Shown here piece by piece: positions 8,196 to 21,990 of a stretch of 64,000 nucleotides of DNA; the stretch's first letter is position 1; each line of letters opens with the position of its first letter. Made by a program: the position numbers and the translations under genes. Location of the stretch: positions 466,977 through 530,976 of the forward strand of contig CAWDSH010000001.1 of NCBI GenBank assembly GCA_963804865.1. Reading direction: 5' to 3'. The stretch comes from an uncultured Chloroflexia bacterium (GTDB lineage: Bacteria > Chloroflexota > Anaerolineae > Anaerolineales > Anaerolineaceae). The notes under the pieces are model-generated. The model had not been told where the DNA came from, did not search any database, and worked only from the letters and a program-made list of their open reading frames with translations.

Positions 8196-10311
8196 TCAAG
8201 GCAATCTCGCTGCAGGATCACCAAAAAGCAGATAAGTTAGGAGCACATCCTTATCTTTGGCATTGGTGATGATCTGTTTCCCCTGAACTTGAACCCATAA
8301 CTCTCCAATCGTCAAATACTTGTTGGAAGCAATTTCTTCAGCTAGAGCTGTACTCAACTGATCCTGAGAGTCTGATAATGTAAGACTTGTAGGAGCAATA
8401 ATCGCGATAGGCCCGTTTTCATAAAGTAGGAGTTTTTCAGAAATTGAATCATATTCTGGATGAATAAAATACCCAGTCAGGCAGGTGAAATTTACAACAA
8501 GAGGCGCAAAATCCGCTGCCAACTCGTTTTCAAGGTCATCATCTCGTAATATATCTTCCCTCCCCCACATCTGAATGGCGCCATGACCAAAATAGATCAA
8601 CCAGTCATTAATTATTTTCGAAGATGACAGCTCTGGATGAGTCCAAACCGAAGCCGATCCTTGTCGTAGCTATTCCATCTTCTAGATTCGTATGACCGCA
8701 TGGCATCCGAGAATGATGCCACCGCATCGCCGAATTCACTCTCTGTTTCGGCTACAATCCCGATTTGAATATTTCTCTCTTTTCGATCGGAAATTGAGTT
8801 CTCATACACGATCAATTTACTAATATAGCCTTCAATTTCATCCGGTTCGCTGAATGGGATTCGACCCAGCGCCACGTCGGGCAGCCCATCACCATTTAAA
8901 TCAGTTAAAGGAATATCGGTAACTGTTTCACCGCCAAAAAGCGACGAATAAAACACTGGTGGCAACCAATTCTCCGATGTTTTTGAGATAAATCCCTTGA
9001 GATCGTAGCTCGAATCACCCACCAGCAATATATTGATCGGTCTAATCTTCCATTCCTGGTTTGCCCACTTCAGAAAGGATCTAACAGCCATCGGATCTGG
9101 TATTCCGTCATTAAAATTGTCATATATCGACTGCCATGACACAACAACTACAGTATGACCTTGCGACTGCCTGTATCCTACTAATCGAGAAAGAGAGTTC
9201 TTGATCTTCTCGGGAACGATAATCACGTAATCGCCACCCTCCATATCCTGAAACAATCCCGTGGCCTCTGCTAACCTCGAAATTTCCGGGTTGATCATAT
9301 CGTTAGTTTCCATAAGCAGATAATGATGACCTGGTACGGTTTTTATTGCGAGATTGTATGTTGAACTCTCATAGATACCGAGAAAGGTAGGAGTAGATAG
9401 ATCTGTCACGTCAAAGCTTAATACTTGTTCCATCAAGTCCTGTGATCAAATGTGACTCTTCCGTTGCAAAGAATTCGATTTGATTCTCCAAAGCTGATAA
9501 AAGTCTGGAGTAATTTAGATCTATAGCATCTAAAAATATCAAGTCGTTTGAAGAATCCGCAAATTTGGGACGTTCGATTATCAAGTGATTATCGTTTTCT
9601 TTGAACAGTTCGTTTGAAATGGTGATATTTGCTTGATATGACTCAATTCCCTCCCAGGATATTTCCTCAATTGGATGACCATTCAAGCTAATGGACAAAG
9701 AATGGTCTGGAGAATTCGGATTTGTCGTCCCCGACCAGAGATATAACGACATATCGATCTGCCCGGGTTGAATCAACGGTAAATCAAAGATAACTTCAAT
9801 GCTATTGGAAGGTGTAACAGTCTTCCAATACCAATGCGAGATCCCTTGCGCTTCCGGCACATACAAAAGGTTATTTTCTAAATGGATAACGGAACGACCC
9901 GTTTCATATCCCTGTAAATTCCCAGCATCACGGATAATGTCATCTCCTTGGATGATTTCCGGATGGATTGATACACCACCAACATTGTTTTTGAGAATAT
10001 AGACATTACCATTGAAATATGGACTTGAATTCTTCTCACCATAAAAAATGATACGTTTTTCGCTCTCAGTAAGCAGAATCGATCCAAAAAGGAATAGGTT
10101 TTTCATTATTGAATAGAGCCAGGTTTTCATAATCATCAACAATAAATCCATACTTTTTCAAAAGGGAATCTGGGATCGCATAAAATGATTCCTCATCAAT
10201 GGTGACTTTTAGTTCGTTGACTGTCTCATTGATCTTTTGTTCAGGGACACATGAGAACAATAGACTGGTAATTAGAAATACCCATATTTTGCGCCGAGTA
10301 TTTCGATTCAT
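8196..10311 (-). pseudogene. Gingipain-like peptidase C25 lipoprotein, shorter paralog of 11950..14985, split into four ORFs
   Basis: The fragments 10066..10311 (lipobox LLFSC), 9411..10151, 8612..9436 and 8196..8600 are collinear with the 1065-aa paralog. The His motif (IYFGHGA) and the Cys motif (NFTCLTGYF) are retained, as is the C-terminal FGDPAARLP (FGDPATQLRIP in the paralog). Confidence 0.75.
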
Positions 10312-11246
10312 GATTCATTCTCAGACTTTCTTCTCCTCTTTTTTATAAGCACCAATATGATATAAAGAAAAGCCGCCAGGAAAAGAACAATCGAGAAAGT
10401 AATCGCTATTTTTAGTAAAGAATCAGACTGTTTATTATAGTAAATTGGCGTGGGAGTTGGTGATAATCCAAGTGGGGGTATCTTTGTCAACGTTGCGGTT
10501 TTTGTTGGTGTCCCCGATGTCGCACTTGGTTCAAGGGACATGGTTATTGTTGATGTATTTGATGGTAAAGGTGATGCTGTTCTCGTCCAGGTGGATGATC
10601 GATAGATCACATTACTCAGTGTTCGAGTTTTTGTAACTGTCCGCGTTACTGTCTTGGTATGAGGTGTTGATGTGATCTTGGTTTGTGTTGGTGTTCTGGT
10701 TCTTGTGGTTGTTTTTGTTCTAGTTGCAGTTGAAGTCTGAGTAAGGGTGACTGTTCTTGACGGGGTTAAAGTCCATGTTGTTGTGCGTGTTGGTGTAAAA
10801 GTAAATGTTGCATTACGAGTTCTGGTCACTGTGGGCGTGAAGGTCCCAAATCCAAAAGTTGTGAAAATCGGTCCATAAAACTCGGATTGATTATTAAAAT
10901 CAACCACTTCAAGTTTATAGAAATATGTCTCACCAATTAGTGGAGTAGTATCTTCAAATGAATATTCTGCGCCTTCGATGCTTCCCCCAGTATGAGCAAT
11001 GAGATCATCGTGAATCCGCAAATAGGTCCCATTTTCTGCATTTGAGCGCAGCACATAGAATCCAAGAATATCAAACTCGGATGCCGTGCCCCAATTGATC
11101 AGAATACTACCTGTTCCTGGCTCAGCGGTGAAATAGGTAAGTGTAACTGCAGCTTGGACAACACCTGGTAGGATAAACAACATCCCAATAATTGCACCCA
11201 GCAGTAATAGCCGGAAAAGTCTAGTCAGCAGGCGTTTTATCGGCAA
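10308..11246 (-). CDS. Secreted, C-terminally anchored protein: signal peptide, FN3/Ig-like beta-sandwich, long Thr-rich linker, TM helix and basic tail
   Basis: TTG start. Signal peptide RLLLLGAIIGMLFILPGVVQA. Beta-sandwich pattern INWGTASEFDILGFYVLRS..YSFEDT..YFYKLEVVD. C-terminus IAITFSIVLFLAAFLYIILVLIKKRRRK. Confidence 0.7.
   Translation of the reverse strand: MPIKRLLTRLFRLLLLGAIIGMLFILPGVVQAAVTLTYFTAEPGTGSILINWGTASEFDILGFYVLRSNAENGTYLRIHDDLIAHTGGSIEGAEYSFEDTTPLIGETYFYKLEVVDFNNQSEFYGPIFTTFGFGTFTPTVTRTRNATFTFTPTRTTTWTLTPSRTVTLTQTSTATRTKTTTRTRTPTQTKITSTPHTKTVTRTVTKTRTLSNVIYRSSTWTRTASPLPSNTSTITMSLEPSATSGTPTKTATLTKIPPLGLSPTPTPIYYNKQSDSLLKIAITFSIVLFLAAFLYIILVLIKKRRRKSENES
10449..10844 (-). 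repeat. Low-complexity coding region with alternating Thr (TxTxT, TRT/TPT/TKT) of about 130 codons
   Basis: TFTPTVTRTRNATFTFTPTRTTTWTLTPSRTVTLTQTSTATRTKTTTRTRTPTQTKITSTPHTKTVTRTVTKTRT... This is a compositional repeat, not an exact tandem repeat. Confidence 0.8.
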
Positions 11247-11524
11247 CTATCCCTGCTTTTTGCAAATGCTTTATAAAACTATCTGTTTCGATTAATGCTT
11301 TATCCGGACTTACATCAAATTCCTGGTAAATGATATCTGCGATTTCCGTTCACGGAACGCTGGCTATTGATCAATTGCCAAATTCTCGTTCCAACTTCAT
11401 TCAGGACTTTTACTTTGCCTTTATCAGGAATAACGATAATAGCGCCATCATCCACCGGCTCACCAATGACATCAACGCAGAGCTGGGGTACAAACGAATA
11501 GTCATTGTGTGTCTCTTTTTTCAT
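11221..11524 (-). pseudogene. PqqD-family (RRE-type) peptide-binding protein of about 100 aa, with one 1-nt frame disruption near 11350 (possibly an assembly indel)
   Basis: ORF 11315..11524 reads ..DDGAIIVIPDKGKVKVLNEVGTRIWQLINSQRSV. The next frame continues TEIADIIYQEFDVSPDKALIETDSFIKHLQKAGIV to a TAG at 11221. This fits the PqqD pattern (LN.tg..iW.li.g.rsv.eI...i...y.v......D...Fi..L...Giv). The ATGA start overlaps the upstream S26 gene. Confidence 0.75.
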
Positions 11525-11934
11525 ATGATTTCTTTACCAGTCAAGCGTCTATAGTTCAGAAATAATACAAAATAAATTCTTCCGATAATTGTTAAAATAA
11601 AATTCACTCCAGGAAAAATCCAATCATATAATTTGCTTTTTTTATCAATTGAGATCAATGTTCCAATAATTTCGCTGGAGGAAATTGATGCATCCGAATA
11701 TTTTTGATTATCACCCTTGGAAAAATAACGATTTTCAAATTTTCCTATGATCCGGTGCAAAAGAAGTCCACCTGGTTTTTTTATCAATACGATATTGCCA
11801 ATATTATAGGTTTTTCGTTCCCGAAAATCGATCAACACCCAATCATTATGTTTCAATAGAGGTAACATGCTCTGCCCTACCACCTTAAACCGGGCGTGAT
11901 CAACCTTCACTTCGGGGCGTGATTGGGTTTTCAA
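11521..11934 (-). CDS. S26/S24-family serine peptidase (SipW/archaeal-type signal-peptidase fold) with no N-terminal TM segment and one C-terminal TM helix
   Basis: VVGQSMLPLL (Ser box), LLLHRIIG (His box) and FSKGDNQKYSDAS (GDN..D box). The C-terminal hydrophobic segment is WIFPGVNFILTIIGRIYFVLFLNY. Confidence 0.65.
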   Translation of the reverse strand: MKTQSRPEVKVDHARFKVVGQSMLPLLKHNDWVLIDFRERKTYNIGNIVLIKKPGGLLLHRIIGKFENRYFSKGDNQKYSDASISSSEIIGTLISIDKKSKLYDWIFPGVNFILTIIGRIYFVLFLNYRRLTGKEII

Positions 11935-11949
11935 ATTCAGGCCTTACAA

Positions 11950-14900
11950 CTAATTCTTAACAAATGGAAAGAAGATTTTATTATTCAGGGTGGCAGGGAT
12001 GCGCAATTGGGTCGCCGGATCACCAAATATCGTATACGAATTGATGATCGAGTAATCAATACCGCTCCCAAACAGATTTAGCTTGGCTCCAAGCACCGCA
12101 CTCCCTAGAGTGTTCCCATTCGTTTGGGTTATTTGATCGAAAAATCCTCGAAGAAGCCAATCATGTTGATCGCTGGTGCCAAAACCTGTAGGAGAAAATG
12201 CTGCCACTGCTCCACCAGCCTCTCTTTTAAGAAAATTCTCTGCCAGACTTATTGTTGCTGAGGTTTTGTCGGCATAGCTCCAATAGCCATCAAGACACGT
12301 AAGAGAAAAAATGACAGGCAACTCACCCAGGTTAGACAATGATGCAACATCGCTATTATAAAAGAAACGAGAGTTGTAACCCCATCCATTGACTCCGCCA
12401 TGACCATTATATAGAACTACAGAAACTCCGTTATTGATACCATTTATCAAGTCTTCTCTGGCTTCAGGACAAGCCGCACCAGAACTACAGGGATAATCGG
12501 GTAAATATATCTTTTGAAAATCCATCCCAAGCGAAGAATAATCCGCGAGAAAGGAATCCATTTCTGTTGTGAAATCGCCGGCCTCATCCGGGAAATAGGC
12601 AGAAGCGATCATCCGGTTTTGCCAGGGATAATCCACGGGGTTGATGGGAATATTTTCATACGAAATGATCTTGTCAATCACATCAGACAATTCCTCTGTT
12701 GTATTGACTGGGATGCGGCCAATCAATAGATCAGGAAGCGGGTCATCGCCATCTACTGCAGCAAGAAGGCTGGAGCTATCCACTTCGCCCTGGATTTCAT
12801 CCACCCACGCCAGGTTGGGTGGCATATAGATCGGCGAAGTTCCATATATATCAGGATTGTATCCTTTAAAATTCCAATGACCGTCGCCTATAAGAACAAT
12901 GTAGGTCGGAGCTGGTGAACGCCATTCATGATAAGCGTAATCCAGGAAAGCATGAATGGCCGCCGGGATTTCAATCCCGTAGCTGAACTGATTGTAGATA
13001 TCATCCAGGTGCACGATCTGGCCGCGCAACCCCTGACTTATCCGGTGGTCAACCAAGCGTTGAACCTGTGAATCGAAAATGGGATCACTGATGGCAACAA
13101 AATCTGCACCATTGAAATGCGAATGAAGATCTGCTCCGTTGTACAAGTCGATCTGGATTGGATTCAATATCTTCTCTTCCCCTGCCAGATAATACCTGGT
13201 ATCGAGGGTTGGTGAGGTTTGGAATGTGACTTTCCCAGAATCAATCACACCATTTTGGATTCTCTTGGGAAGCAAGGGATTTGTGATATCAAGTACAAAA
13301 ATGCCCGGTGAAACGAAATTTTCTACCTCGAATTCCAATTCACCGTCCTGCGGTGAGCGAAAATTCAATTCATCATTCAATGCTCTAAAGAGACGGTCGT
13401 ATTCAACTTCAAACCAGTTGAAGAGAATTGCATCCGAGCCTTGACCCACATCCGTTAGCACTTCAAACTTCAGATTGTTCGCTCCTGGAAGTAACGAAGA
13501 ATTGCTCACATTTCCTGAAAATTGGTGAGATATCTTCCCATCCCACGTTGAATCTTCAATCAATGTGCTTGTGTTGATCCAGAACCGTGTGTGGTGGTCC
13601 GGATTTACATTCGGATTATTAGCTTGAGCATTAACTTCTCCATAGATGGTGGCATCCCCTCCGCTGTTAGCAACATCAAATAACTCAACTGGAAATTCCA
13701 TTGAAATTGAACTACTTGTGGATAATTCATTCCAAAACCAAGTATCTTCAGAGTTAAAGTGGTAAGTTCGCCAACGCATGTTTTGTTCAGAGTGTGATAT
13801 TGACCGGAAATATGACGGAGGAGTCAGGCTATCATTGATCGGGTTCCCGTCGATTTCTTCCATAAATATTGCTTTACCATTAAAATCAATCCAATATACA
13901 TTTTCATCAGTATATTTTTCAACCATCGTGGCATTGAAGGTTGGTCTCCAACCGGTTGAATAATCGTTCCACCAGGTATCTTCCTGGTTAAATAATTCTG
14001 CTAAATGCTGCCCGTAAAGTTTTTGACCATAGAAGAGGAAGGCTTCCCCTGCTTCAAACAAACCATTCTCATTTTCGTCTTCCGGCAGGATGGCTACACT
14101 CTCTCCCTGACAAGAAAAACCGACTGAAGTATATGGGATGTCAGAATATGTGATTCCAGCTGTTGTCAGATCTTCAAATGTAACCCTGTATAGCCCATCT
14201 TGATTGACCTTCAACTTCACTTTTTCGATAAAGCTCTCAGACATCGCATTCACTTCGAAAGATTCTGAAGTGACATCACCAATCCGCCAATCTTTTGCAG
14301 CAGCATAATTAACCAGCTCCTGGGCAAGAGCCATATCAAATGGGGAATTCTCCAATTCCTTATGGTTTATTGACATCGATGCCACGTCATCAAAATCTAT
14401 TCGGATGCGAATAGTTCGATTCCAAAGCAATTCACCGGTTACAGGATTATATTGAAAAGGAAATACCTGCAGGTTGGCTATGCGATGTTGCCTAACAATT
14501 GAATCAGAACTGCCACTTACCAGCGCGTCTGGGAAAAACGCATTACGTTGATAAATGTTTTCGTCTTCAATCCTGGAATAATCAACTGCGGGAAATTCAT
14601 TTTGATAAGATATGATCTCGCTTTCAGATGGTAAAATCCTGAATTCTCCCGGCAATGAAACAAACTCACCGCTCGTTACTGATATTCGATAACCACCTGT
14701 CTGAGGTAGACCAAAAGATAGGCTTTTTACAGGCAACTCAGGGGAACCTGCCGATGAAAAAGTATTGGTACCCGGAATTGTTAATCGTTGATAGACAATT
14801 CCATCAATGTCCATTGATTCGAGCTCATAATTGGGAAAATGAAATTCAAGAGTAAAACCCGAACTGTCTGATTTCAATAATTCAAATAATCCGGAATCCT

Positions 14901-14985: not shown

Positions 14986-14995
14986 ATGAGCCCAG

Positions 14996-16420
14996 TTAGA
15001 TCTTTCGTTTGAAGAATTGACTGGCAAAAACAACAACGAGGAAGAAACCGAGAACAGGGAAGATGTATCGTTGACTTGGGGAAGACTGCGCAGTGAAATC
15101 AACCAGTGTAAGAGCAGTGGGATTCGTCCCCTCAAAACTACCGGCAACGAATGGAGTTCCCCCCAAATCCACGTATGTTAAGCCGGATATTTCGAGATCG
15201 TTTAAGCCGTAATGGTTAAGGGTTGCGCTTGGCAAAGTCGCAGCATTCACCATCGGCCAGCATGTTTTTAAAGTCGGCGAACTGGCACATAGATCGAATT
15301 GGGTGTCATTTGTTGGAGATGCTGGAATAAAGAATACATCCCTTTTTGCCCAAACTTCTTCATGACACGCAGTATCAAGGTCGACGGGCAAAACGATCGT
15401 ATAAGGATCACTGGAGGTCGCTTCAATCGTGAAGAAATCATAGTAATCCGAGCACATACTTGATACCCAGGGTTCAATCCCATTACCAAATGGAGCATTA
15501 CTGGGTGATCGACCAAAGGTCACAATCACGTTAATTCCATCTGAACCCCCTGTCAATTGCGCAATCCCAAGTGTTGCACCTAATGGAGCAATTCCTGCAT
15601 TCCAATCGACAATTTCTGCTCCCAACCTTGTATTCCACCAGGAATCACTCGGAGGGTCAACTTCATATGTTGGCATAGTGGCATCATCATACACACCCCA
15701 CCAATTATGGGATAAATTAAAAATCCCATAACTCTGAGCACGTAATGAATATGTAAAACCAATGAAATTATTGGCAAAAGCTAAAATAGAACCCTCTGCG
15801 TCATAATTGATTGGTGAAGCTGATGCAATGCCTGTTGAATTAAAAGTGTTGCCAACGATCAAAACATCTCCAATCCCACCATCATCAATAAGACCAATAT
15901 AACAGCCATCAATATTTGTATTTGTGATAGCCAGATTTCCATCCGGTTCTACGCCATCAGCAATCATGCGAATTGCAGATATATTATCATTAAGGCAAAC
16001 AATCGTTAAATCCCTGAAAGCAAAATCTCCCTCCATGATTTCAAAAATTGGAACTGTTGCATTAGTTCCCGTTGCTATTATTTGACCTTCACCATTTAGG
16101 CTGTCTATCGTCAGCGGATATTCACCAAGATAATTATCATCAATATCCTTTGGTCCACTTCGAATGGGAGTTGTCGAATTATCAATATAATTGGTGCCAA
16201 TAAAAGTCAACGTCGAAGCGGAGCTATCCACGAGATTATCGATAGCTGTAAAGATATCCGTATAACAGGGAATCAGAGATGGATTCGCATCACATGTTGC
16301 TTGATCTGGAGCTACATAAACATGATCGTAAATCTGCATCCTGGGAGCCGCAGATACATGTTGTGAAAATAATAAAAAGATAAAACAAGTGATGATTAAT
16401 ATTCTTATTGTAGTCTTCAT
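14996..16420 (-). CDS. Secreted right-handed beta-helix (pectate-lyase/NosD-like) repeat protein with a C-terminal TM anchor
   Basis: Start trimmed to MKTTIRILIITCFIFLLFSQHVSA (signal peptide) after an AAGGGG Shine-Dalgarno sequence. Repetitive I.N..I.G segments (LAITNTNIDGCYIGLIDDGGIGDVLIVGNTF). C-terminus YIFPVLGFFLVVVFASQFFKRKI. Confidence 0.6.
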   Translation of the reverse strand: MKTTIRILIITCFIFLLFSQHVSAAPRMQIYDHVYVAPDQATCDANPSLIPCYTDIFTAIDNLVDSSASTLTFIGTNYIDNSTTPIRSGPKDIDDNYLGEYPLTIDSLNGEGQIIATGTNATVPIFEIMEGDFAFRDLTIVCLNDNISAIRMIADGVEPDGNLAITNTNIDGCYIGLIDDGGIGDVLIVGNTFNSTGIASASPINYDAEGSILAFANNFIGFTYSLRAQSYGIFNLSHNWWGVYDDATMPTYEVDPPSDSWWNTRLGAEIVDWNAGIAPLGATLGIAQLTGGSDGINVIVTFGRSPSNAPFGNGIEPWVSSMCSDYYDFFTIEATSSDPYTIVLPVDLDTACHEEVWAKRDVFFIPASPTNDTQFDLCASSPTLKTCWPMVNAATLPSATLNHYGLNDLEISGLTYVDLGGTPFVAGSFEGTNPTALTLVDFTAQSSPSQRYIFPVLGFFLVVVFASQFFKRKI

Positions 16421-16435
16421 GCTTACCCCTTTGCC

Positions 16436-16475
16436 AAAAACAATCTGGGTCCGTCGTTCCTGACAAAACCCAGAG
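16436..16475 (-). terminator. Hairpin plus short T-run between the small ORF and the beta-helix gene (possible attenuator)
   Basis: On the minus strand, ctctgggt..(17-nt loop)..acccagat is followed by tgtttttgg. It lies about 35 nt after the small-ORF stop and about 16 nt before the next start. Confidence 0.3.
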
Positions 16476-16510
16476 AGCAAATCAACATTCTATTCAACGT
16501 AACTTTTTTA

Positions 16511-16684
16511 TCAAGGATTACTGTCATTATCCAATCCTAATGGATCCAATGGATCCACTCCCAAAGGTGAACCTAGAGGGACGGACCCGGCGCGAACTTC
16601 CAGGTCCATTTCGATCATGATCCTGGGAGTCTCATATTTCTTCTTTTTGTTATCAAGCTCATCCATATCGATACTTTTCATCAT
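16511..16684 (-). CDS. Untracked 57-aa ORF, a candidate leader-core precursor-like peptide
   Basis: My translation is MMKSIDMDELDNKKKKYETPRIMIEMDLEVRAGSVPLGSPLGVDPLDPLGLDNDSNP. It falls below the 60-aa cut-off of the ORF track. It fills an otherwise empty 290-nt gap and has its own promoter-like element. Whether it is coding is unproven. Confidence 0.45.
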   Translation of the reverse strand: MMKSIDMDELDNKKKKYETPRIMIEMDLEVRAGSVPLGSPLGVDPLDPLGLDNDSNP

Positions 16685-16707
16685 CAATAGTTTGGTGATT
16701 AAATTGG

Positions 16708-16772: not shown

Positions 16773-18077
16773 TCAATTATTAGTAATAATTGACCAAAAA
16801 GTGTTATCTTTCCGAAAACCCAGCTCATATGAGCTGCAGGCATCGGCAATTTCCTCGCACCTCTTTATAACAAGTGGTAAAAGCGTTTTTTCAGAAGTCA
16901 ATACTGGAGTGTTGGCCAGTAATGCAGCTATTGCATAATTCTTCCCCATTTTCTTAATATTGACCTTTAGTGATTTATTAATTTGATAAATTCCTTTAAT
17001 CTTGGCTCCATTATTTTGAGGAATCTCCCTTGTTGGATTCCAGAAAGGTGTTGAAAAAGCGCTCCAGCTTCTTCCAATAGGTTTGGTTGCAACGAGGTCA
17101 TCACTCAATACTTGATCTCCAGCATCGATATATTTTGTAATCGTTGTTTTTCCACTCCCGGAATGACCCATGAAAATATAAGCTTTATCATTCCGCTTAA
17201 CCCCTGCAGAATGAAGCAATAATCCTCCTGATCGGAAGATGAGAATTGAGAAGATTATTCTCATTAATATCTCCAAATCTGCATTGCCTAAATCCTTATG
17301 GGCGATAATATCTCCGGTTTTTCTAGAAAAATCGATTTTTACTTTTATCTTTTTTGTTTGATAGTGCAATACTTTTATGTCATGTGAAATCAATAATGGA
17401 ATTTCAGAAAACTCATTTTGATTTGCATCTAAGATTCCAATGTGCAAATCAATTCGATCCGGGGTATCCAGAATAAAATTCTTGTATCTTTGGATCAAAT
17501 CAGAAAAATGATTTTCTTCATATAGAAATTCGAGGTTGCATCCACCGATGGAAAAGACCTTGCTTTCTTTTGTTTTTCGACCAATCTTCTGAAAATATCT
17601 TCTCCCAGCGTATATGAAGAAAAGCAGCATACAAATAATGCCTGGAAAAAATAAGTAACTGCTCCATGACATTGCTTTCACAGGCACAGGACCGAATAGG
17701 TTCCCCCTTGACCCTTCACTCCTGACTTCTTCTAAATAATATTGGTACTCACGACCATTAATTAGGTGATTGTCCGTAAATGTGTAGTTTTCCCCAGTAA
17801 ATGCACCTCCCCTTTTTTCAATGAACGTGATCAATTGTCTATTATGCTCTACTTCATCGAACCGGAAAATATTGAAACCGGTGATACCCACCTCGGATAC
17901 TGTTTCCCATTTCACTTCGACTATGGCATTATCGTTACATATCAGGGATAGAGATAGAAAAATAGTTCCAATGAGTAATACCAACCATTGGAGATAGGAT
18001 CTCAAAACTCTATTGAGCATAAAAAGATTATACACAATCACATCCCTGGATAATTCCAAGTAGCATATTACTTGCAT
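16773..18077 (-). CDS. Bitopic membrane protein: TM, extracytoplasmic FN3/Ig-like domain, TM, cytoplasmic HPr-kinase-C-like P-loop kinase domain
   Basis: P-loop block GGLLLHSAGVKRNDKAYIFMGHSGSGKTTITKYI..VLSDDLV, typical of HprK-C/HprK-related kinases. TM1 is WLVLLIGTIFLSLSLI and TM2 is YLFFPGIICMLLFFIYAG, followed by RRYFQKIGRK. An alternative start exists at 18020 (MLNRVL..). Confidence 0.7.
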   Translation of the reverse strand: MQVICYLELSRDVIVYNLFMLNRVLRSYLQWLVLLIGTIFLSLSLICNDNAIVEVKWETVSEVGITGFNIFRFDEVEHNRQLITFIEKRGGAFTGENYTFTDNHLINGREYQYYLEEVRSEGSRGNLFGPVPVKAMSWSSYLFFPGIICMLLFFIYAGRRYFQKIGRKTKESKVFSIGGCNLEFLYEENHFSDLIQRYKNFILDTPDRIDLHIGILDANQNEFSEIPLLISHDIKVLHYQTKKIKVKIDFSRKTGDIIAHKDLGNADLEILMRIIFSILIFRSGGLLLHSAGVKRNDKAYIFMGHSGSGKTTITKYIDAGDQVLSDDLVATKPIGRSWSAFSTPFWNPTREIPQNNGAKIKGIYQINKSLKVNIKKMGKNYAIAALLANTPVLTSEKTLLPLVIKRCEEIADACSSYELGFRKDNTFWSIITNN

Positions 18078-18104: not shown

Positions 18105-18133
18105 TTGACAGAATATGACCTCTTCTCTAGAAT
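18105..18133 (+). promoter_or_regulatory. Near-consensus sigma70-like promoter of the EPS operon
   Basis: TTGACA-N17-TAGAAT, about 38 nt upstream of the ATG at 18171. Confidence 0.5.
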
Positions 18134-18170
18134 TTCATTAGCAAGTTTTGCATGAAGAATAGGTGTAAAC

Positions 18171-19808
18171 ATGACCATGCCACCCGTAAATATTCAAGCT
18201 GATACCGATAATATTGATATCAGGCAGTATTTGGGCCTGATTTGGCAATGGGCTTGGTTAATAATTTTGATCACGATTTTAGCTGGTGTGATTGCATTCT
18301 TCGTCAGCCAGCAAATCACACCAATTTACCAGGCATCCACGACTCTTTTAGTTAATGAAGCTCCATCCACAAGAACTACAGATTACACATCTGTTCTTGC
18401 CAGTGAAAGGCTTACCCGAACATACGCTGAAATGATGTTGACGCAACCCATTCTTGCGACTGTAAACGAACAACTCACATTGGGTGTCAATTTCGAAGCA
18501 TTACGATCATCTATTTCAGTTGAACCAATCAAGGATACTCAATTAATCCAGATAAAAATTGACTCAATTGATCCGAATCGAGCTGCCATGATTGCAAATA
18601 CCCTGGTTTCGGTTTTTTCCAGCCAAATCCAATCATTGCAAGCTGAGAGATTCATGGTTTCAAAACAAAGTTTACAGGATCAATTGGCAAATATTGATTC
18701 TCAGATCCAGCACTTCACCGAGCAATTGGCTCGAACATCGGATGCCACAGAAAGGGATCGGATTGAATCAAATGCCGCGCAGTATCGTCAGATCTATTCA
18801 AATTTATTGCTTAGCCTCGAACAGGTACGGCTGGCTGAAGCACAGACGACCTCGACCGTAGTTCAAGTTGAGCCGGCAATTCCCAATAGCACTCCTATTC
18901 GACCAAAGATTATTAACAACACTGTAATTGCAGCGCTTTTGGCAATGCTTTTAACGATCGGTTTAATTTTTACTATTGAAGCATTGGACGATACGATCAA
19001 AACACCTGATGAAGTCAATAAGATCTTGCACCAACCTGTCCTCGCATTGATCGCGCATCATACATTCGAAGAGGGTAAACCAATTACAGAAGCCCAACCC
19101 AGGTCTCCTGTTTCAGAAGCTTTTCGGACTTTACGGACCAATGTTCAATACGCCAGCGTCGATCGTCCACTTCGAACATTGTTGATTACCAGTCCGGATC
19201 CAGGTGAAGGTAAAACGACTATTGCCGTGAATCTGGCTCTTGTACTTGCACAAAGTGGAAGACGTGTAATTCTGATCGATGCCGATCTTCGGAGACCGGC
19301 GATCCACCGTCAATTCCGATTGCCCAATAAGATGGGATTGAGTACCCTGTTTTTCCAATCCGAAGTGAAATTGGATGGAATCCTTCAGTTGACCCGGATA
19401 CCCAATCTATCTTTAATCACTTCGGGAGATTTACCGCCCAATCCATCCGAATTATTGGGATCTCAAAAAATGCATTTGATCCTTGAAAAAACCCAGGCAC
19501 TTGCTGATGTTGTTATCATTGATACTCCTCCTACGTTGGCTGTCACAGATGCCTCGGTGTTAATGCAAGTCGTCGATGGCGCACTTCTTATCATCCAACC
19601 TGGCGTGACTCGCATGGGCACAGCCATGGGCGCCATCGAGCAATTCCAGCGGGTAGGGTCAAAGATACTGGGTGTTGTATTTAATAACGTTGAGCTAAGT
19701 CGGGGTAGATATCGATATCGATACTATAAAGATTATCATGGTTATGGTTCATATTATTACTACAAAGGTTACCGAGACGATCAAAGATCACATCGAAATA
19801 AAAAATGA
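18171..19808 (+). CDS. Polysaccharide co-polymerase (Wzz domain) fused to a BY-type tyrosine autokinase
   Basis: Wzz-like N-terminus with two TM segments. Walker A SPDPGEGKTTIAVNLA and Walker A' ILIDADLRRP. C-terminal Tyr cluster RYRYRYYKDYHGYGSYYYYKGY. Confidence 0.9.
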   Translation: MTMPPVNIQADTDNIDIRQYLGLIWQWAWLIILITILAGVIAFFVSQQITPIYQASTTLLVNEAPSTRTTDYTSVLASERLTRTYAEMMLTQPILATVNEQLTLGVNFEALRSSISVEPIKDTQLIQIKIDSIDPNRAAMIANTLVSVFSSQIQSLQAERFMVSKQSLQDQLANIDSQIQHFTEQLARTSDATERDRIESNAAQYRQIYSNLLLSLEQVRLAEAQTTSTVVQVEPAIPNSTPIRPKIINNTVIAALLAMLLTIGLIFTIEALDDTIKTPDEVNKILHQPVLALIAHHTFEEGKPITEAQPRSPVSEAFRTLRTNVQYASVDRPLRTLLITSPDPGEGKTTIAVNLALVLAQSGRRVILIDADLRRPAIHRQFRLPNKMGLSTLFFQSEVKLDGILQLTRIPNLSLITSGDLPPNPSELLGSQKMHLILEKTQALADVVIIDTPPTLAVTDASVLMQVVDGALLIIQPGVTRMGTAMGAIEQFQRVGSKILGVVFNNVELSRGRYRYRYYKDYHGYGSYYYYKGYRDDQRSHRNKK

Positions 19809-20869
19809 ATCCCAATTCCAGGGGCGTGATATCCACAAAAGTTAGAGTCGCCCCCACAGTGTCAATTATTATTCCCACGTATAACGAAGAAGCGTTTATA
19901 GATAATTGCATGGATTCAATATTGAATCAGGATTTTCCAGGAATAATTGAAATTTATATAATTGACGGTGATTCCAATGACGGAACGAAGATAAAACTTG
20001 AAGATTGGTTGAAAAAGGATTCCAGAATAAAACTTATTAATAACCCCCACCGATATCAAACAAGTGCCTTGAACCTTGGTATCAAAAAAAGTAAGGGGGA
20101 CATCATTGTTCGCATTGACGCTCATGCAGTATATGCATCCAATTATGTAAGTGAATGTATTTTTGCTTTTGAGCGATCCCACGCTGGTTGCGTAGGTGGT
20201 GGGGTTAACCTCCTCCCCGGTGAAGATTTTTTATCAAAATTGATTGGACTTGTACAAAAGAATCTACTTGGTTCCGGCATCGCCAAATTCAGGAGACAAT
20301 CCTATGAAGGGTATGTCGATACGGTTTGGCCGGGTGCTTATCACCGTTCTATTTTTGAGAAGGTTGGGTATTTTCGTGAATACTTGACCCGTACAGAGGA
20401 TCTGGATTTTCATGCTCGTATGCGGCAATTGGGTTATACCATCTATCAAACCCCACGGATAAAACCATATTACCACCCGAGAACCAGTCTTTTATCCCTA
20501 TTTCATCAATACTTTGGAAATGGCCAACAGGTCATTACAACATTGGTGGTGAATGCCGAAGCGATCTCCTTGCGACATCTTGTTCCATTTATTACGAGCA
20601 CTTTATTCATTCTTGTTTTGATTCTTGGAATTTGGGATAAAACTGGAATGCCCATTTCCTGTGGATTTGTAGGATTTTATTTACTATTGCTTCTTTTGGC
20701 ATCAATATCAATTGGGATAAATAATGGGATCAAATATTTTTTCGCATCGCCCCTCATTTTCGTAGTAATTCACATTAGCTATGCACTTGGTTCATGGAGC
20801 GGATTATTCTTACTATTGAGAAATTGTTTTAATGTGAATAGAGTTTTTAAAGAAAACTTTGCGAAATGA
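19805..20869 (+). CDS. Family 2 glycosyltransferase with a C-terminal membrane domain
   Basis: VSIIIPTYNEEAFI..IIDGDSNDGT and TEDLDF motifs, with 3-4 C-terminal TM helices. The start overlaps the upstream stop by 4 nt. Confidence 0.85.
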   Translation: MNPNSRGVISTKVRVAPTVSIIIPTYNEEAFIDNCMDSILNQDFPGIIEIYIIDGDSNDGTKIKLEDWLKKDSRIKLINNPHRYQTSALNLGIKKSKGDIIVRIDAHAVYASNYVSECIFAFERSHAGCVGGGVNLLPGEDFLSKLIGLVQKNLLGSGIAKFRRQSYEGYVDTVWPGAYHRSIFEKVGYFREYLTRTEDLDFHARMRQLGYTIYQTPRIKPYYHPRTSLLSLFHQYFGNGQQVITTLVVNAEAISLRHLVPFITSTLFILVLILGIWDKTGMPISCGFVGFYLLLLLLASISIGINNGIKYFFASPLIFVVIHISYALGSWSGLFLLLRNCFNVNRVFKENFAK

Positions 20870-21990
20870 TTACACCTGATCAGCTCGTAATCCCTATTAG
20901 TAAATGGACAGCTTCAATTGCAGAAGCCAGTAAAGATGGTATATATTCACAAAAACCACAATTTCGCCCCCTCCTGGCTTCGACTTGGTATCTCAATAAA
21001 AGGAGCTTGCTAGAAACTAAAGAAGCCGACATATGCGAGCAAACATATTTGCAAAATCGCTCCCGCTGGTTACGGTTCGAAAAGACTATAACTAATTCAA
21101 TTAATATTGTGTCATGCTCAAGAATAGAACTTGTTTTATTGAAAGGACTGGATTTTTTAACAACTTTATATCCGGATACAGGGATTAGGCATCTTGGTGA
21201 TGTGGATATTTTACTAAGACCGAATGATTTAATAAGAGCTGCCACTATTTTATTGAAAAACGGTTTTTTACTGGTTGGTATTAACGATAAGAAAGAAGCC
21301 ATTAAATGGCTAAAGATCTCTAAAGATATTCCAAGTGAACTTGTGCTTTTCCATAGATCAGGTCTTTATTTCGAATTACATCAGCATCTCGTTTCATCAA
21401 ATTGGTTTGAAGATGTATATCCAATTGATTTGGATCGTATTTGGGAAAATTCGGTTTTAAACAAATTCCTAAATGAACAATCGAACAATATTCGGGTATT
21501 ATCCCGCGAAGATAACATTGCTTACCTCATTCTCCATTTAGCGAATCATGGCATGGGATATCAAGCGCTTCATAATTATTTGGATTTGGATCTGATAATC
21601 CGAAATTCCCATAATGAACTAGATTGGTCCCTAATTCGGGAAAATATTATTTCATGGCGATTGTCAACTGCAGCAAACTTTATTTTTTCCTTCTGTTCTA
21701 AATACCTTGACACTCCTTTGCCGGATGATTTTCTTGATAGTTTGCCGCATCATTTATGGTCGAGGTTGGCAGTATTTCTTCTCTTAAAACCAGTGGATCT
21801 AATCACTGGTCGAGAGACATTGGGTGTAAAGTATCCCACACTGGTAAAAGTTGCAGTTATTGAACGATTCAGTGATCAAGTAAAAACGATTGTTAATGGA
21901 ATACTTCCTAAAAAAATACCTTTTCAACATCCAAGGAAGTCACTAAGCCATTGGTCAAATATGCTTAGGGCAATCAGGCGAGGAGATTAG
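20866..21990 (+). CDS. Uncharacterised nucleotidyltransferase family protein (NTP_transf_5/PF14907-like)
   Basis: LLKGLDFLTTLYPDTGIRHLGDVDILLRPNDLIRAATILLKNGF matches the family core (LKG..l....Y.....R...DiDlLv......a...L...GF). The start overlaps the upstream stop by 4 nt. Confidence 0.65.
   Translation: MITPDQLVIPISKWTASIAEASKDGIYSQKPQFRPLLASTWYLNKRSLLETKEADICEQTYLQNRSRWLRFEKTITNSINIVSCSRIELVLLKGLDFLTTLYPDTGIRHLGDVDILLRPNDLIRAATILLKNGFLLVGINDKKEAIKWLKISKDIPSELVLFHRSGLYFELHQHLVSSNWFEDVYPIDLDRIWENSVLNKFLNEQSNNIRVLSREDNIAYLILHLANHGMGYQALHNYLDLDLIIRNSHNELDWSLIRENIISWRLSTAANFIFSFCSKYLDTPLPDDFLDSLPHHLWSRLAVFLLLKPVDLITGRETLGVKYPTLVKVAVIERFSDQVKTIVNGILPKKIPFQHPRKSLSHWSNMLRAIRRGD

What the first reader, a model, noticed from the sequence alone, without database searches (positions are those of the whole stretch)
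8196..21990. Lasso-like accessory and tailoring gene set (RRE, HPr-kinase-like, PF14907-like nucleotidyltransferase, candidate precursor) with no cyclase, embedded in a C25-protease/EPS surface locus
Seen in the sequence: one minus-strand operon (18077 to 8196) encodes a membrane HPr-kinase-like protein, a promoter-equipped 57-aa ORF, a beta-helix protein, a C25 peptidase, an S26-type peptidase, a PqqD-like protein, a Thr-rich anchored protein and a second C25 paralog. The divergent EPS operon carries a PF14907-like nucleotidyltransferase. Established knowledge: PqqD/RRE proteins bind RiPP leader peptides. In Firmicutes lasso clusters (the paeninodin and pseudomycoidin types), HPr-kinase-like enzymes phosphorylate the precursor's C-terminal Ser and a PF14907-type nucleotidyltransferase decorates it further. 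HprK-related kinase plus PqqD cassettes of unknown function have also been noted beside EPS loci. The new element here is the combination. The accessory genes and a candidate precursor are present, but no Asn-synthetase-like cyclase or transglutaminase-like B2 protease is in the window. An S26-fold peptidase and clan-CD (C25) proteases take their place, and the kinase has a receptor-like topology. Inference: the system may make a phospho- or glyco-decorated linear peptide, or a peptide-linked modification tied to surface polysaccharide. I am not aware of a described system with this layout.
Basis: partly seen in the sequence, partly recalled or inferred. Interest (0 to 1): 0.85.

Follow-up and report, generated by a model that had tools for sequence, protein, structure and literature searches.

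The report
Linear phosphopeptide cassette with C25 proteases
This Anaerolineae operon is a real, widely conserved peptide-modification cassette whose core (precursor peptide, leader-binding protein, HPr-kinase-like kinase, signal-peptidase-like leader peptidase) matches the "linear polyphosphorylated peptide" family described in Bacilli in 2026, but here it lies outside that phylum and is interleaved with two gingipain-type proteases and stalked surface proteins.

Summary
The genes are there. Profile, fold and synteny evidence supports the kinase-like, PqqD, S24/S26, C25 and PF14907 assignments. The 58-codon ORF is a genuine precursor gene: 23 synonymous against 3 non-synonymous codon changes versus a relative, and 28 distinct homologues share (R)KPYxKPEIIHExxLE[TVA][RQK]AG[ST]P. 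No lasso cyclase, B2 protease or ABC exporter lies in the 64 kb.

The core is no longer undescribed. Popov et al. [quoted passage not shown] The window's proteins hit the same models and are homologous to a bona fide Paenibacillus LppK/LppB/LppS set.

The context is new. The host is Chloroflexota, although LPP was called Bacillota-restricted. There is no exporter, and the kinase is tethered by a TM-Fn3-TM module. In about 80 metagenomic loci the order is kinase, peptide, C25, SpI, PqqD, Fn3-stalk protein, C25b.

Corrections: PqqD carries a 1-bp frameshift, the second C25 is broken into four frames, "beta-helix" and "promoter-equipped" are unverified, and the PF14907 link is weak in this lineage.

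Verdict: new variant of a known kind, moderately interesting.

The parts
16773..18077 (-). Membrane-tethered ScmC/LppK-type (HPr-kinase/PEPCK-fold) kinase. Layout: TM 29-47, Fn3-like ecto-domain about 50-135, TM 140-158, cytoplasmic P-loop kinase domain about 170-434.
   Evidence: NCBIfam ScmC 3.9e-6, HprK_rel_A 5.1e-5. Homologues carry PF27840. Invariant H..GxSGSGKT..DD motif. Versus Paenibacillus LppK: 28% identity over 195 aa, E=2.8e-18, and family HMM 6e-42. AF2 model plus Foldseek: PEPCK and HprK/P for the kinase domain, FnIII for the ecto-domain. TM segments.
16511..16687 (-). Precursor peptide, 58 codons from TTG (57 from the ATG at 16684). The leader carries Y18-x-x-P21-x-I23 ... L29-E30-V31. 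The conserved junction is R32-A33-G34-S35. The core tail is rich in Pro, Leu, Asp and Gly.
   Evidence: Conserved next to kinases that are only 30-43% identical. 23 synonymous versus 3 non-synonymous codon differences. 28 unique homologues with Y0, P3, E12 and G16 invariant.
14996..16480 (-). Secreted protein of unknown fold with a C-terminal TM anchor and basic tail (probable start at 16420). It is variable 'cargo': other loci carry different proteins at this place.
   Evidence: Signal-like N-terminus and C-terminal TM. No Pfam or NCBIfam hit. AF2 pLDDT 36. Homologue only in L005.
11950..15147 (-). C25 (gingipain/PorU-type) cysteine peptidase with an N-terminal gingipain-like pro-domain and a signal sequence (probable start at 14985).
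   Evidence: PF01364 1.6e-75 and PF08126 3.8e-27. PorU models 6.4e-70 but below cut-off. PDB: PorU 1.1e-15, RgpB 1.2e-12. His916 and Cys951 invariant.
11521..11934 (-). SpI/LppS-like (SipW, archaeal-type signal peptidase I) putative leader peptidase with a C-terminal hydrophobic helix.
   Evidence: PF00717 3.6e-7 and TIGR02228 1.3e-9. HMM built from published LppS sequences: 3.5e-13. 30% identity to Paenibacillus LppS, E=2e-10. Ser, His and Asp conserved.
11221..11524 (-). PqqD-type RiPP recognition element (LppB/ScmD-like). The reading frame is broken by a 1-bp insertion near 11345, so the ORF as assembled is 11315-11524.
   Evidence: PF05402 23.4 bits as assembled. Repaired: 57.7 bits, E=1.5e-15. 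The LppB HMM hits both pieces. The N33-equivalent Asn is present, and the D70-equivalent position is Glu.
10308..11246 (-). Surface protein: signal peptide, Fn3-like head (same domain as the kinase ecto-domain), Thr-rich stalk, C-terminal TM and basic tail.
   Evidence: Domain shared with the kinase N-terminus and with the L001, L007 and L008 proteins. 38% Thr in residues 135-265. TM segments. Present downstream of C25 in 32 of 36 informative loci.
8196..10311 (-). Second C25 peptidase (C25b) with a lipoprotein-like N-terminus. It is broken into four reading frames in this assembly. The catalytic GHG and TC motifs are retained.
   Evidence: The pieces are collinear with the intact L008 gene 16199-18433. 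Frames 0/2/1/2 and the motifs. C25b present in 23 of 28 informative loci.
20866..21990 (+). PF14907 (NTP_transf_5) nucleotidyltransferase, LppN-like. It lies in the divergent Wzz/GT2/Bac_transf polysaccharide operon. Its membership of the cassette is inferred, not shown.
   Evidence: PF14907 2e-32. It sits directly upstream of the Fn3-TM/kinase/PqqD genes in L001, L011, L019 and L043. It is part of the LPP core set.
18171..20869 (+). Context: Wzz/BY-kinase and a GT2 glycosyltransferase, the start of the divergent polysaccharide operon. The operon continues with Bac_transf, an epimerase, an NTP-transferase, DegT and LCP up to 27907.
   Evidence: Pfam. The same arrangement occurs in L005. It is not conserved in most related loci.

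Best explanation
The locus is a Chloroflexota (Anaerolineae) version of the LPP-type RiPP pathway.

**Proposed cytoplasmic steps**
1. The PqqD-like RRE binds the YxxPxI motif of the 58-aa precursor.
2. The ScmC/LppK-type kinase domain, held at the inner face of the membrane by a TM-Fn3-TM module, phosphorylates the nearly invariant Ser/Thr of the AG[ST]P junction. This is Ser35 here, and phosphorylation may be repeated.
3. The SipW-like serine peptidase then removes the leader. By analogy with the F-E-T cleavage site of LppA, the cut falls at or just after the invariant L-E-[T/V/A] motif, that is after V31, R32 or A33.
4. The product is a linear phosphopeptide of about 25-27 residues, rich in Pro, Leu, Asp and Gly. 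The PF14907 enzyme of the neighbouring polysaccharide operon may extend the phosphate.

**What is shown and what is inferred**
- Shown here: homology of every core component, conservation of the catalytic and leader-binding residues, selection on the peptide, and strict synteny.
- Inferred by analogy: the chemistry, meaning the phosphorylation and the cleavage site.
- Inferred from gene order only: the product works together with the secreted C25 peptidases and the Fn3-stalk surface protein with which the RiPP genes are interleaved. It could be their substrate, ligand or regulator. The export route is unknown.
For: **Homology to LPP**
- The LPP core set and its chemistry come from PMC13381572.
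- That paper's 'HprK kinase' group is TIGR04249, TIGR04352 and TIGR04355. Its SpI is TIGR02228, its NTase is NTP_transf_5 and its RRE is PqqD. The window proteins hit the same models.
- A bona fide Paenibacillus LPP locus (L093) reads PF27840 kinase, PqqD, SpI, ABC exporter.
- Pairwise E-values against the window proteins are 2.8e-18, 3.5e-6 and 2e-10. The kinase HMM scores 6e-42. An LppS HMM scores 3.5e-13.

**Residues and fold**
- The RRE Asn that fixes the leader Pro is present in 54 of 54 sequences, and the Tyr-binding acidic residue in 52 of 54. The SpI Ser/His/Asp is conserved in 35-36 of 36.
- The kinase fold matches only PEPCK and HprK/P.

**Peptide**
- Purifying selection on the peptide.
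- 28 unique peptides with Y0, P3, E12 and G16 invariant, and S/T17 in 26 of 28.

**Synteny and absences**
- In 79 loci found with C25 as bait, the order is kinase, peptide, C25, SpI, PqqD, Fn3-stalk, C25b.
- Genome MAGs titled Anaerolineaceae, Chloroflexia and Anaerolineae carry the same cassette.
- No cyclase or B2 lies in the window, and no cyclase is among the recurrent large neighbour genes.
Against: - No biochemical data exist for this lineage.
- The precursor is not detectably homologous to LppA by HMM. The similarity is at motif level only, and the spacing between the hydrophobic-E-T motif and the Ser differs by one residue.
- Four of 28 peptides have Thr at the acceptor position, whereas S3T abolished phosphorylation by LppK.
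- No MsbA-like exporter lies in the window, and none was found among the recurrent large neighbours of related loci. It is therefore unclear how a cytoplasmic peptide would meet the secreted C25 enzymes.
- SpI is absent from some otherwise complete loci (L007, L008, L045).
- PF14907 is rare in the family.
- In this assembly PqqD and C25b are frameshifted.
Confidence: 0.72

Rival explanations
1. Signalling reading. The matured peptide is an extracellular cue. Secreted C25 proteases trim it after export, and the Fn3-like ecto-domains sense it. These ecto-domains sit on the kinase and, in sister loci, on an ECF anti-sigma factor. This would form an autoregulatory circuit that controls the surface-protein module. 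The reading concerns biological role and is compatible with the proposed LPP-type chemistry.
For: - The same Fn3-like domain, flanked by two TMs, occurs on three partners: the kinase (fused or as an adjacent gene), the stalk protein, and anti-sigma factors paired with ECF sigma genes.
- Those sigma/anti-sigma pairs lie between the kinase and the peptide in L014, L016 and L045, where the sigma gene was identified. The anti-sigma homologue also lies there in L024 and L069. A pair follows PqqD in L001.
- The C25 proteins carry signal sequences and pro-domains.
Against: - No exporter was found.
- No binding evidence exists.
- The window itself has no ECF pair.
- The C25-Fn3-C25 module exists without any peptide genes (L055, L075, L082).
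Confidence: 0.12
2. Adaptor or anchoring reading. After leader removal, the free N-terminus (or a site in the DP[L/F] tail) of the phosphopeptide is used by the PorU-like C25 enzymes in a transpeptidation. This would link surface proteins to a phospho-glycan assembled by the neighbouring polysaccharide genes, by analogy with PorU attaching cargo to A-LPS.
For: - The C25 proteins are as close to the PorU sortase as to the gingipains.
- The RiPP genes are interleaved with the C25 and stalk-protein genes.
- Variable cargo proteins with a C-terminal TM and basic tail occur in the loci.
- A PF14907 enzyme and an LCP phosphotransferase are nearby in the window.
Against: - The idea rests entirely on analogy.
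- The PorU models score below their cut-offs.
- No conserved sorting motif was found in the cargo C-termini.
- The polysaccharide neighbourhood is not conserved.
- No exporter was found.
Confidence: 0.08
3. In this particular genome the cassette is decaying and non-functional, because PqqD and C25b are pseudogenes.
For: - A 1-bp frameshift in PqqD.
- C25b is split into four frames.
Against: - Housekeeping genes in the window are broken in the same way: phnC, glpK and an N-truncated cysteine desulfurase. This points to assembly indel errors.
- The catalytic motifs and the downstream PqqD frame are intact.
Confidence: 0.1
4. This is a split lasso-peptide cluster whose cyclase and B2 protease lie elsewhere in the genome.
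For: - A YxxP leader and a PqqD-type RRE are present.
- An HprK-like kinase and PF14907 also decorate paeninodin-type lasso peptides.
- 15 of 28 cores have Asp or Glu at positions 7-9 counted from the invariant Gly.
Against: - No cyclase or B2 lies in 64 kb.
- No cyclase is among the recurrent large neighbours in the roughly 90 loci.
- The window core has its first Asp at position 12 counted from that Gly (sequence).
- An SpI-type leader peptidase is present instead of B2, as in cyclase-free LPP clusters.
Confidence: 0.03

Closest known systems
Linear polyphosphorylated peptides (LPP), lppAKBSDN clusters of Bacilli (Popov et al., Nat Commun 2026;17:6633, PMC13381572)
   Same: - The enzyme set is the same: a PF27840/TIGR04249-type HprK-like kinase, a discrete PqqD RRE with the same leader-binding residues, a SipW/TIGR02228-type leader peptidase with Ser/His/Asp, and an NTP_transf_5 enzyme nearby.
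- Both have a YxxPx[I/V] leader followed by a hydrophobic-E-T motif and a conserved Ser a few residues later.
- Neither has a cyclase.
- The window cluster and many LPP clusters lie next to polysaccharide genes.
   Different: - The phylum differs: Chloroflexota, whereas the paper calls LPP Bacillota-restricted.
- There is no MsbA-like exporter.
- The kinase is coupled to a TM-Fn3-TM module.
- The genes are interleaved with two C25 peptidases and an Fn3-stalk protein.
- The precursor consensus differs, (R)KPYxKPEIIHExxLE[TVA][RQK]AG[ST]P, with a short Pro/Leu/Asp-rich core.
- PF14907 is rarely present.
- The chemistry is untested.
Phosphorylated or glycosyl-phosphorylated lasso peptides (paeninodin type)
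   Same: - A discrete RRE that recognises [Y/W]xxP.
- An HprK-like kinase and NTP_transf_5 act as tailoring enzymes.
   Different: - No Asn-synthetase-like cyclase and no transglutaminase-like B2.
- The leader peptidase is a serine SpI-type enzyme.
- The window core lacks an acidic residue at ring positions 7-9.
SynChlorMet (Scm) cassette: ScmC (TIGR04249/PF27840), ScmD (TIGR04248), two rSAM/SPASM enzymes
   Same: - The kinase and the RRE are the best NCBIfam matches of the window proteins.
- Relatives L004, L009 and L010 carry ScmC, PqqD and rSAM/SPASM. L004 and L009 also carry an LppS-like peptidase and YxKPxI leaders, and L009 has a C25 peptidase as well.
   Different: - No radical-SAM enzyme is in the window or in any of the 79 C25-baited loci.
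- The cores contain no Cys.
- The scores are far below the equivalog cut-offs.
PorU (type IX secretion sortase) and gingipains, peptidase family C25
   Same: - The catalytic domain, the His/Cys dyad, a gingipain-like pro-domain, and homology to the region N-terminal of the PorU catalytic domain.
   Different: - The host is not Bacteroidota, and no T9SS genes or CTD-type cargo were seen.
- The NF033707 score is 236, below the 420 cut-off.
- An association with a RiPP module has not been reported: the literature search for gingipain plus PqqD returned 0 papers.

Membership tests
LPP (linear polyphosphorylated peptide) BGC | SipW/archaeal-type signal peptidase I homologue (TIGR02228) with a Ser/His/Asp catalytic set, next to an RRE | tested here: met
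   TIGR02228 1.3e-9, below the NCBIfam cut-off as for many LppS. LppS HMM 3.5e-13. 30% identity to Paenibacillus LppS. Ser, His and Asp conserved. The gene lies directly upstream of PqqD.
LPP (linear polyphosphorylated peptide) BGC | Discrete PqqD-type RRE with the Asn (N33) and acidic (D70) residues that hold the YxxP leader | tested here: met
   Repaired protein PF05402 E=1.5e-15. The LppB HMM hits it. Asn is present, and Glu stands at the D70 position. The gene carries a 1-bp frameshift in this assembly.
LPP (linear polyphosphorylated peptide) BGC | HprK-like kinase of the TIGR04249/TIGR04352 (PF27840) type | tested here: met
   Same models hit (the paper's grouping). LppK of L093 is PF27840. 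E=2.8e-18 pairwise and 6e-42 with the HMM. PEPCK/HprK fold.
LPP (linear polyphosphorylated peptide) BGC | NTP_transf_5 (PF14907) nucleotidyltransferase in the cluster | tested here: met
   PF14907 2e-32 at 20866-21990. However, it sits in the divergent operon 2.8 kb from the kinase, and only 6 of the roughly 90 related loci carry one (L001, L005, L011, L012, L019, L043).
LPP (linear polyphosphorylated peptide) BGC | MsbA-like ABC exporter | tested here: not met
   No ABC_membrane protein in the window; the only ABC system is the phosphonate importer. Related loci have none between the cassette genes. An ABC-2 transporter follows C25b in 7 loci, including ones without RiPP genes.
LPP (linear polyphosphorylated peptide) BGC | Precursor with the leader YxxPxVLxHQxIxFETxxS | tested here: inconclusive
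   The window has Y-ETP-R-I ... L-E-V-R-A-G-S. YxxPx[I/V], His+Glu, the hydrophobic-E-[T/V] motif and the Ser recur in 28 peptides. The LppA HMM gives no significant hit, and the spacing differs by 1-2 residues.
LPP (linear polyphosphorylated peptide) BGC | Kinase-dependent (poly)phosphorylation of a core Ser, and RRE-dependent leader cleavage by SpI | not testable with these tools
   Needs expression and mass spectrometry.
Lasso peptide BGC | Asn-synthetase-like macrolactam cyclase (C) and transglutaminase-like leader peptidase (B2) | tested here: not met
   No such Pfam hit among the window ORFs scanned. No cyclase among the recurrent large neighbour genes of related loci. The rest of the genome was not available.
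Lasso peptide BGC | Core with Gly/Ala/Ser/Cys at position 1 and Asp/Glu at positions 7-9 | tested here: not met
   In the window core the first Asp is at position 12 counted from the invariant Gly (sequence). In the family, 15 of 28 cores have an acidic residue at 7-9, so the feature is not conserved.
SynChlorMet cassette | Two PqqE-like radical SAM/SPASM enzymes (ScmE, ScmF) next to ScmC and ScmD | tested here: not met
   No radical-SAM ORF in the window. The rSAM HMM hits none of the 79 C25-baited loci. It is present in relatives L004, L009 and L010.
T9SS sortase PorU | Score above the NF033707 cut-off, and a T9SS context with CTD cargo | tested here: not met
   236 bits against a 420 cut-off. 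No Pfam or NCBIfam hit to T9SS components or a CTD sorting domain among the operon proteins or the other window ORFs scanned. No shared C-terminal sorting motif in the stalk proteins.

The most novel reading that the evidence does not exclude
The leader-less phosphopeptide is not a free natural product. It would be a ribosomally made adaptor that the two PorU-like C25 enzymes use as substrate or nucleophile. The C25 enzymes would couple the Fn3-stalk or cargo surface proteins, or a phospho-glycan, to the cell envelope. That would be a RiPP-dependent 'sortase' system in Chloroflexota. It would also make LPP, the SynChlorMet cassette and this cassette three branches of one ancient chassis (YxxP leader, PqqD, ScmC kinase, SpI).
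Probability: 0.1. Interest if true: 0.88.

Novelty: new variant of a known kind. Interest (0 to 1): 0.6.

Why it matters
- It extends LPP-type machinery beyond Bacillota. The family was published in May 2026, its final product and function are still unknown, and it was described as Bacillota-restricted. The same core machinery is widespread in Chloroflexota.
- It supplies about 28 new precursor sequences. Their very short, conserved cores may be easier to solve by mass spectrometry than the 45-residue LppA core.
- It ties the pathway genetically to a defined partner module: two C25 proteases, an Fn3-stalk surface protein and, in some loci, an ECF sigma/anti-sigma pair with the same ecto-domain. 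This gives the first concrete lead to what these phosphopeptides are for.
- It links LPP to the long-orphan SynChlorMet cassette through a shared leader motif and a shared SpI-type peptidase. It points to candidate precursors for that cassette (L004 9809-9985, and three ORFs in L009).

Tried and rejected
- **Profile search of kinase alignment A1 against PDB sequences:** only generic P-loop and weak PEPCK hits, so fold search was needed.
- **LppA HMM against all locus ORFs:** no significant hits. The precursor relationship is at motif level only.
- **AlphaFold of the 474-aa 'beta-helix' protein without an alignment:** pLDDT 36, unusable. phmmer of it against the gap genes of other loci found nothing.
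- **Gap genes between kinase and peptide, tested as possible exporters:** they are ECF sigma and anti-sigma factors, a response regulator, an LTD-domain protein and unknown secreted repeat proteins. None is a transporter.
- **Arg-specific C25 cleavage at ExR|AGS:** considered and set aside, because position 14 is Gln, Lys, Asn or Ser in 9 of 28 peptides.
- **EPS context as a conserved feature:** rejected. Homologues of the window's Wzz, GT2 and Bac_transf genes occur in only a few loci.
- **Look-up of the window's own contig through its 100%-identical TypA:** not on record.
- **Literature searches:** SynChlorMet, ScmC+PqqD and gingipain+PqqD returned nothing; PF14907 returned only one unrelated phosphonate-biosynthesis paper.
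- **Promoter scan:** not above chance.

Full report
**1. What is in the sequence**

The minus strand between 18077 and 8196 carries a tight string of ORFs, and the plus strand from 18171 carries a divergent operon.

- 11950-15147 is a C25 peptidase (PF01364, E=1.6e-75) with a gingipain-type pro-domain (PF08126, 3.8e-27).
- 11521-11934 is an S24/S26-clan peptidase (PF00717, 3.6e-7). Its best NCBIfam model is the archaeal-type signal peptidase I, TIGR02228 (1.3e-9).
- 11315-11524 hits PqqD exactly at the Pfam threshold (23.4 bits).
- 20866-21990 is PF14907 (2e-32).
- 19805-20869 is a GT2 glycosyltransferase.

The 434-aa protein at 16773-18077 gives only weak, sub-threshold hits to ScmC (3.9e-6), HprK_rel_A (5.1e-5) and HprK_rel_B (1.5e-3), all centred on a P-loop.

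Neither the 494-aa protein at 14996-16480 nor the 58-codon ORF at 16511-16687 hits any family.

**2. Corrections to the observation**

- **PqqD is frameshifted.** Removing one G near 11345 restores a 100-aa protein ending at 11221. It matches PF05402 end to end (57.7 bits, E=1.5e-15).
- **The second C25 is broken.** It lies in four reading frames, at 10066-10311, 9411-10151, 8612-9436 and 8196-8600 (frames 0/2/1/2). It keeps the GHG and TC catalytic motifs. Its pieces are collinear with an intact orthologue in L008.
- **Assembly errors are likely.** Housekeeping genes in the window are broken in the same way: phnC, glpK and a cysteine desulfurase. Indel errors in the assembly are therefore more likely than decay of this locus.
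- **'Beta-helix' is unverified.** There is no family hit, and the single-sequence AlphaFold model has pLDDT 36.
- **'Promoter-equipped' is not supported statistically.** The region has 24 promoter-like sites against 30 +/- 5.8 in shuffles. A 9/12 site with an extended -10 does lie just upstream of the small ORF, at 16736-16708.
- **No cyclase, B2 or exporter.** Pfam scans of the ORFs across the window found no Asn-synthase-like cyclase, no Transglut_core3 protease and no ABC exporter. The only ABC system is a phosphonate importer.
- **Source organism.** The window comes from an Anaerolineae genome. Its TypA is 77-79% identical to those of Longilinea and Anaerolineaceae, and a 100% identical copy sits on a 1.73-Mb contig.

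**3. The kinase-like protein**

- Its closest relatives carry the precomputed Pfam family PF27840 (ScmC).
- The alignment shows an invariant H...F.G.SGSGKT...DD motif and a C-terminal F..FW motif.
- An AlphaFold model built on that alignment (mean pLDDT 79.7) has a TM helix, a beta-sandwich, a second TM helix and an alpha/beta domain.
- Apart from an FnIII hit for the ecto-domain, Foldseek against the PDB returns only ATP-dependent PEPCK (E down to 4.5e-8) and HPr kinase/phosphorylase (3.3e-5; target TM-score up to 0.54).

'HPr-kinase-like with a receptor-like topology' is therefore correct at fold level.

The family is large: 29,556 representatives at 50% identity reach E<=1e-3. Only 4 of the best 150 carry the fused N-terminal module. 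In most relatives the TM-Fn3-TM protein is a separate gene placed immediately upstream.

**4. The small ORF is a real precursor-like gene**

- A neighbour kinase that is 43% identical (L006) is followed by a peptide whose last 33 residues are identical to the window's. Over 42 codons there are 23 synonymous and 3 non-synonymous differences.
- Kinases only about 30% identical, in an Anaerolineaceae MAG and a Chloroflexia MAG, are followed by peptides with the same motif.
- A metagenome scan with the C25 protein as bait returned 79 loci. Sandbox HMMs found the peptide in 25 of 49 loci that had enough upstream sequence, giving 28 unique sequences.
- Counted from the Tyr, positions Y0, P3, E12 and G16 are invariant. 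I5 and A15 occur in 27 of 28, L11 in 26, S/T17 in 26 and P18 in 20.
- The consensus is (R)KPYxKPEIIHExxLE[T/V/A][R/Q/K]AG[S/T]P. A 14-34-residue tail follows, rich in Pro, Gly, Leu and Asp. The tail often carries a DP[L/F] motif and never a Cys.

**5. Synteny**

In the C25-baited loci the gene order is strikingly constant. It runs TM-Fn3-TM protein, ScmC-type kinase, (variable genes), peptide, C25, SpI-like peptidase, PqqD, Fn3-head/Pro-Thr-stalk/TM protein, second C25.

The table gives the frequency of each component where enough flanking sequence exists.

| Component | Loci with it / informative loci |
|---|---|
| Kinase | 14/21 |
| Peptide | 25/49 |
| SpI | 31/56 |
| PqqD | 30/50 |
| Fn3-stalk protein | 32/36 |
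| C25b | 23/28 |

- Presence of the peptide and of PqqD go together: 13 loci have both, 11 have neither and 8 are discordant.
- The C25, Fn3-stalk, C25b trio is therefore the broader module. Roughly 60% of its occurrences have the RiPP genes inserted on both sides of the first C25 gene. That interleaving argues for joint function rather than mere adjacency.
- The variable genes between kinase and peptide are of several kinds. They include ECF sigma factors paired with anti-sigma factors whose ecto-domain is the same Fn3-like fold between two TMs, a response regulator, and secreted proteins with a C-terminal TM and basic tail. None is an exporter.
- Recurrent outer neighbours are a convergent ABC-2 transporter (also in loci without RiPP genes), a bacterial alpha-2-macroglobulin, an M23/PPC protein and TMEM260/PMT-type protein O-mannosyltransferases. 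No lasso cyclase is among them.
- The polysaccharide operon beside the window's cassette is shared with its close relative L005. It is not a conserved feature of the family.

**6. Comparison with what is known**

A full-text search led to Popov et al., Nat Commun 2026;17:6633 (PMC13381572). That paper describes 'linear polyphosphorylated peptides' (LPP) in Bacilli.

- The clusters are often embedded in capsular polysaccharide loci.
- The precursors carry YxxPxVLxHQxIxFETxxS.
- Only about a third of the clusters are linked to a lasso cyclase and B2.
- Experimentally, LppK places several phosphates on Ser3 of the core. LppS cleaves after T-1, but only when LppB presents the leader. F-3, E-2 and T-1 matter for cleavage. 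LppN was inactive in the heterologous host, and the final product and its function are unknown.

The paper's Supplementary Data 2 shows which models define each component. Its 'HprK kinase' class is TIGR04249 + TIGR04352 + TIGR04355, its SpI is TIGR02228, its NTase is NTP_transf_5 and its RRE is PqqD. These are the same models the window proteins hit.

I tested homology in three ways.
- HMMs built from the published LppS and LppB sequences hit the window peptidase at 3.5e-13, and hit both halves of the frameshifted PqqD.
- I retrieved a bona fide LPP locus from Paenibacillus sp. MBLB4367. It reads PF27840 kinase, PqqD, SpI, ABC exporter. Pairwise comparison with the window proteins gave E=2.8e-18 for the kinase (28% over 195 aa; 6e-42 with the family HMM), 3.5e-6 for PqqD and 2e-10 for SpI.
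- The LppB Asn that fixes the leader's Pro kink is present in 54 of 54 cassette RREs. The Tyr-binding Asp is present in 51 of 54, with Glu in the window. The LppS Ser/His/Asp set is conserved in 35-36 of 36.

The core of the finding is thus an LPP-type pathway.

**7. Most likely mechanism**

- The RRE binds Y18-x-x-P21-x-I23 of the precursor.
- The membrane-tethered kinase phosphorylates the conserved hydroxyl residue of the AG[S/T]P junction, which is Ser35 in the window.
- The SpI-like peptidase cuts at or just after L29-E30-V31, the counterpart of F-E-T in LppA. Cleavage after R32 or after the near-invariant A33 cannot be excluded. A33 would fit the -3/-1 rule of signal peptidases.
- The product would be a linear phosphopeptide of about 25-27 residues (RAGSVPLGSPLGVDPLDPLGLDNDSNP or slightly shorter).

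These steps are inferred by homology and were not shown here.

What happens next is open. The C25 enzymes and the Fn3 proteins are extracytoplasmic, the peptide has no signal sequence, and no exporter was found. I rank three readings of the coupling.
- (a) The peptide is a substrate of, or cue for, the C25/Fn3 module, with the Fn3 ecto-domains as sensors.
- (b) The peptide is an adaptor used by PorU-like C25 transpeptidases.
- (c) The modules are co-regulated without direct interaction.

**8. Wider relationships noticed**

- The same chassis (ScmC kinase, PqqD, SpI-like peptidase, YxKPxI leader) occurs with radical-SAM/SPASM enzymes in relatives outside Chloroflexota.
- An Acidobacteriota MAG (L009) has three Cys-containing precursors, and a C25 peptidase as well.
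- A deltaproteobacterial SynChlorMet cassette (L004) has two uncalled ORFs. One is a peptide with YEKPRI...HFET, and the other is an LppS-like peptidase.
- LPP, the SynChlorMet cassette and the present cassette therefore look like three elaborations of one leader, RRE, kinase and peptidase core.

**9. Novelty and verdict**

Its claim that no such system has been described is overtaken by the 2026 LPP paper.
- What remains new:
  - the phylum, since the paper calls LPP Bacillota-restricted;
  - the absence of an exporter;
  - the Fn3-tethered kinase;
  - a distinct and compact precursor family;
  - above all, the conserved interleaving with two C25 peptidases and Fn3-stalk proteins, for which I found no literature.
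- I file it as a new variant of a known kind, with interest 0.6.

Noticed in passing
L004 9809-9985 and 12240-12725: This is a classic SynChlorMet cassette (ScmC, PqqD, rSAM/SPASM) in a deltaproteobacterial MAG, and it has two uncalled ORFs. One is a small peptide, ...TIYEKPRIESEEHFETLVLYC..., with an LPP-like YxKPxI/FET leader. The other is an LppS-like peptidase (LppS HMM 2.7e-18). Together they may be the cassette's missing precursor and leader peptidase.
   Followed up: partly
L009 3704-12010: An Acidobacteriota MAG carries, in order, an SpI-like peptidase, an ScmC kinase, PqqD, rSAM/SPASM, three Cys-containing precursors (for example MKKTYQKPIIEHTEVIEARAVACAKTSDTDCGGTPLTS, all ending in Thr-Ser) and a 1501-aa C25 peptidase. 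The link between C25 and this RiPP chassis therefore extends beyond Chloroflexota.
   Followed up: partly
L014 7889-9249; also L016, L045, L024, L069; L001 11093-12258: An ECF sigma factor is paired with an anti-sigma factor whose ecto-domain is the same Fn3-like fold flanked by two TMs as on the kinase. In L014, L016 and L045 the pair sits between the kinase and peptide genes. The anti-sigma homologue also sits there in L024 and L069. In L001 a pair follows PqqD. The window itself has no such pair.
   Followed up: partly
window 6174-6945, 27932-29424, 35047-35892, 28-1857, 11315-11524, 8196-10311: Many genes, including housekeeping ones, are split or truncated by frame changes: phnC, glpK, a cysteine desulfurase and a mannosidase-like gene. 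This suggests an indel-prone assembly rather than locus-specific decay.
   Followed up: partly
window 51964-62824: A block of membrane glycosyltransferases (GT87 at 56525-57787; PMT_2/PMT at 56010-56528, 58602-60224 and 60316-61641) lies next to four large ORFs with no Pfam hit (51964-53448, 53458-54987, 55049-56086, 61676-62824). TMEM260/PMT-type protein O-mannosyltransferases also recur beside the cassette in L001, L075, L083, L084 and L087, so the Thr/Pro-rich stalks may be O-glycosylated.
   Followed up: no
L031 17493-23090; also L022, L039: A bacterial alpha-2-macroglobulin (a protease-trapping inhibitor) lies in these loci; in L031 it follows just downstream of the second C25 gene.
   Followed up: no
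L055, L075, L082 (and others): The C25, Fn3-stalk, C25b trio occurs without a kinase, PqqD, SpI or peptide, so it is a separable module. A convergent fused ABC-2 transporter follows C25b in L086, and homologues occur in seven loci in all (L021, L055, L076, L082, L085, L086, L090).
   Followed up: partly
L011 487-2019: In an Anaerolineae MAG the PF14907 domain and the TM-Fn3 module fall in one stop-to-stop ORF directly upstream of the kinase and PqqD. This hints at a physical link between the nucleotidyltransferase and the membrane tether.
   Followed up: no
window 41836-43416: A 526-aa protein with a G5 domain (2.8e-16) and no other annotation. It is unrelated to the finding.
   Followed up: no
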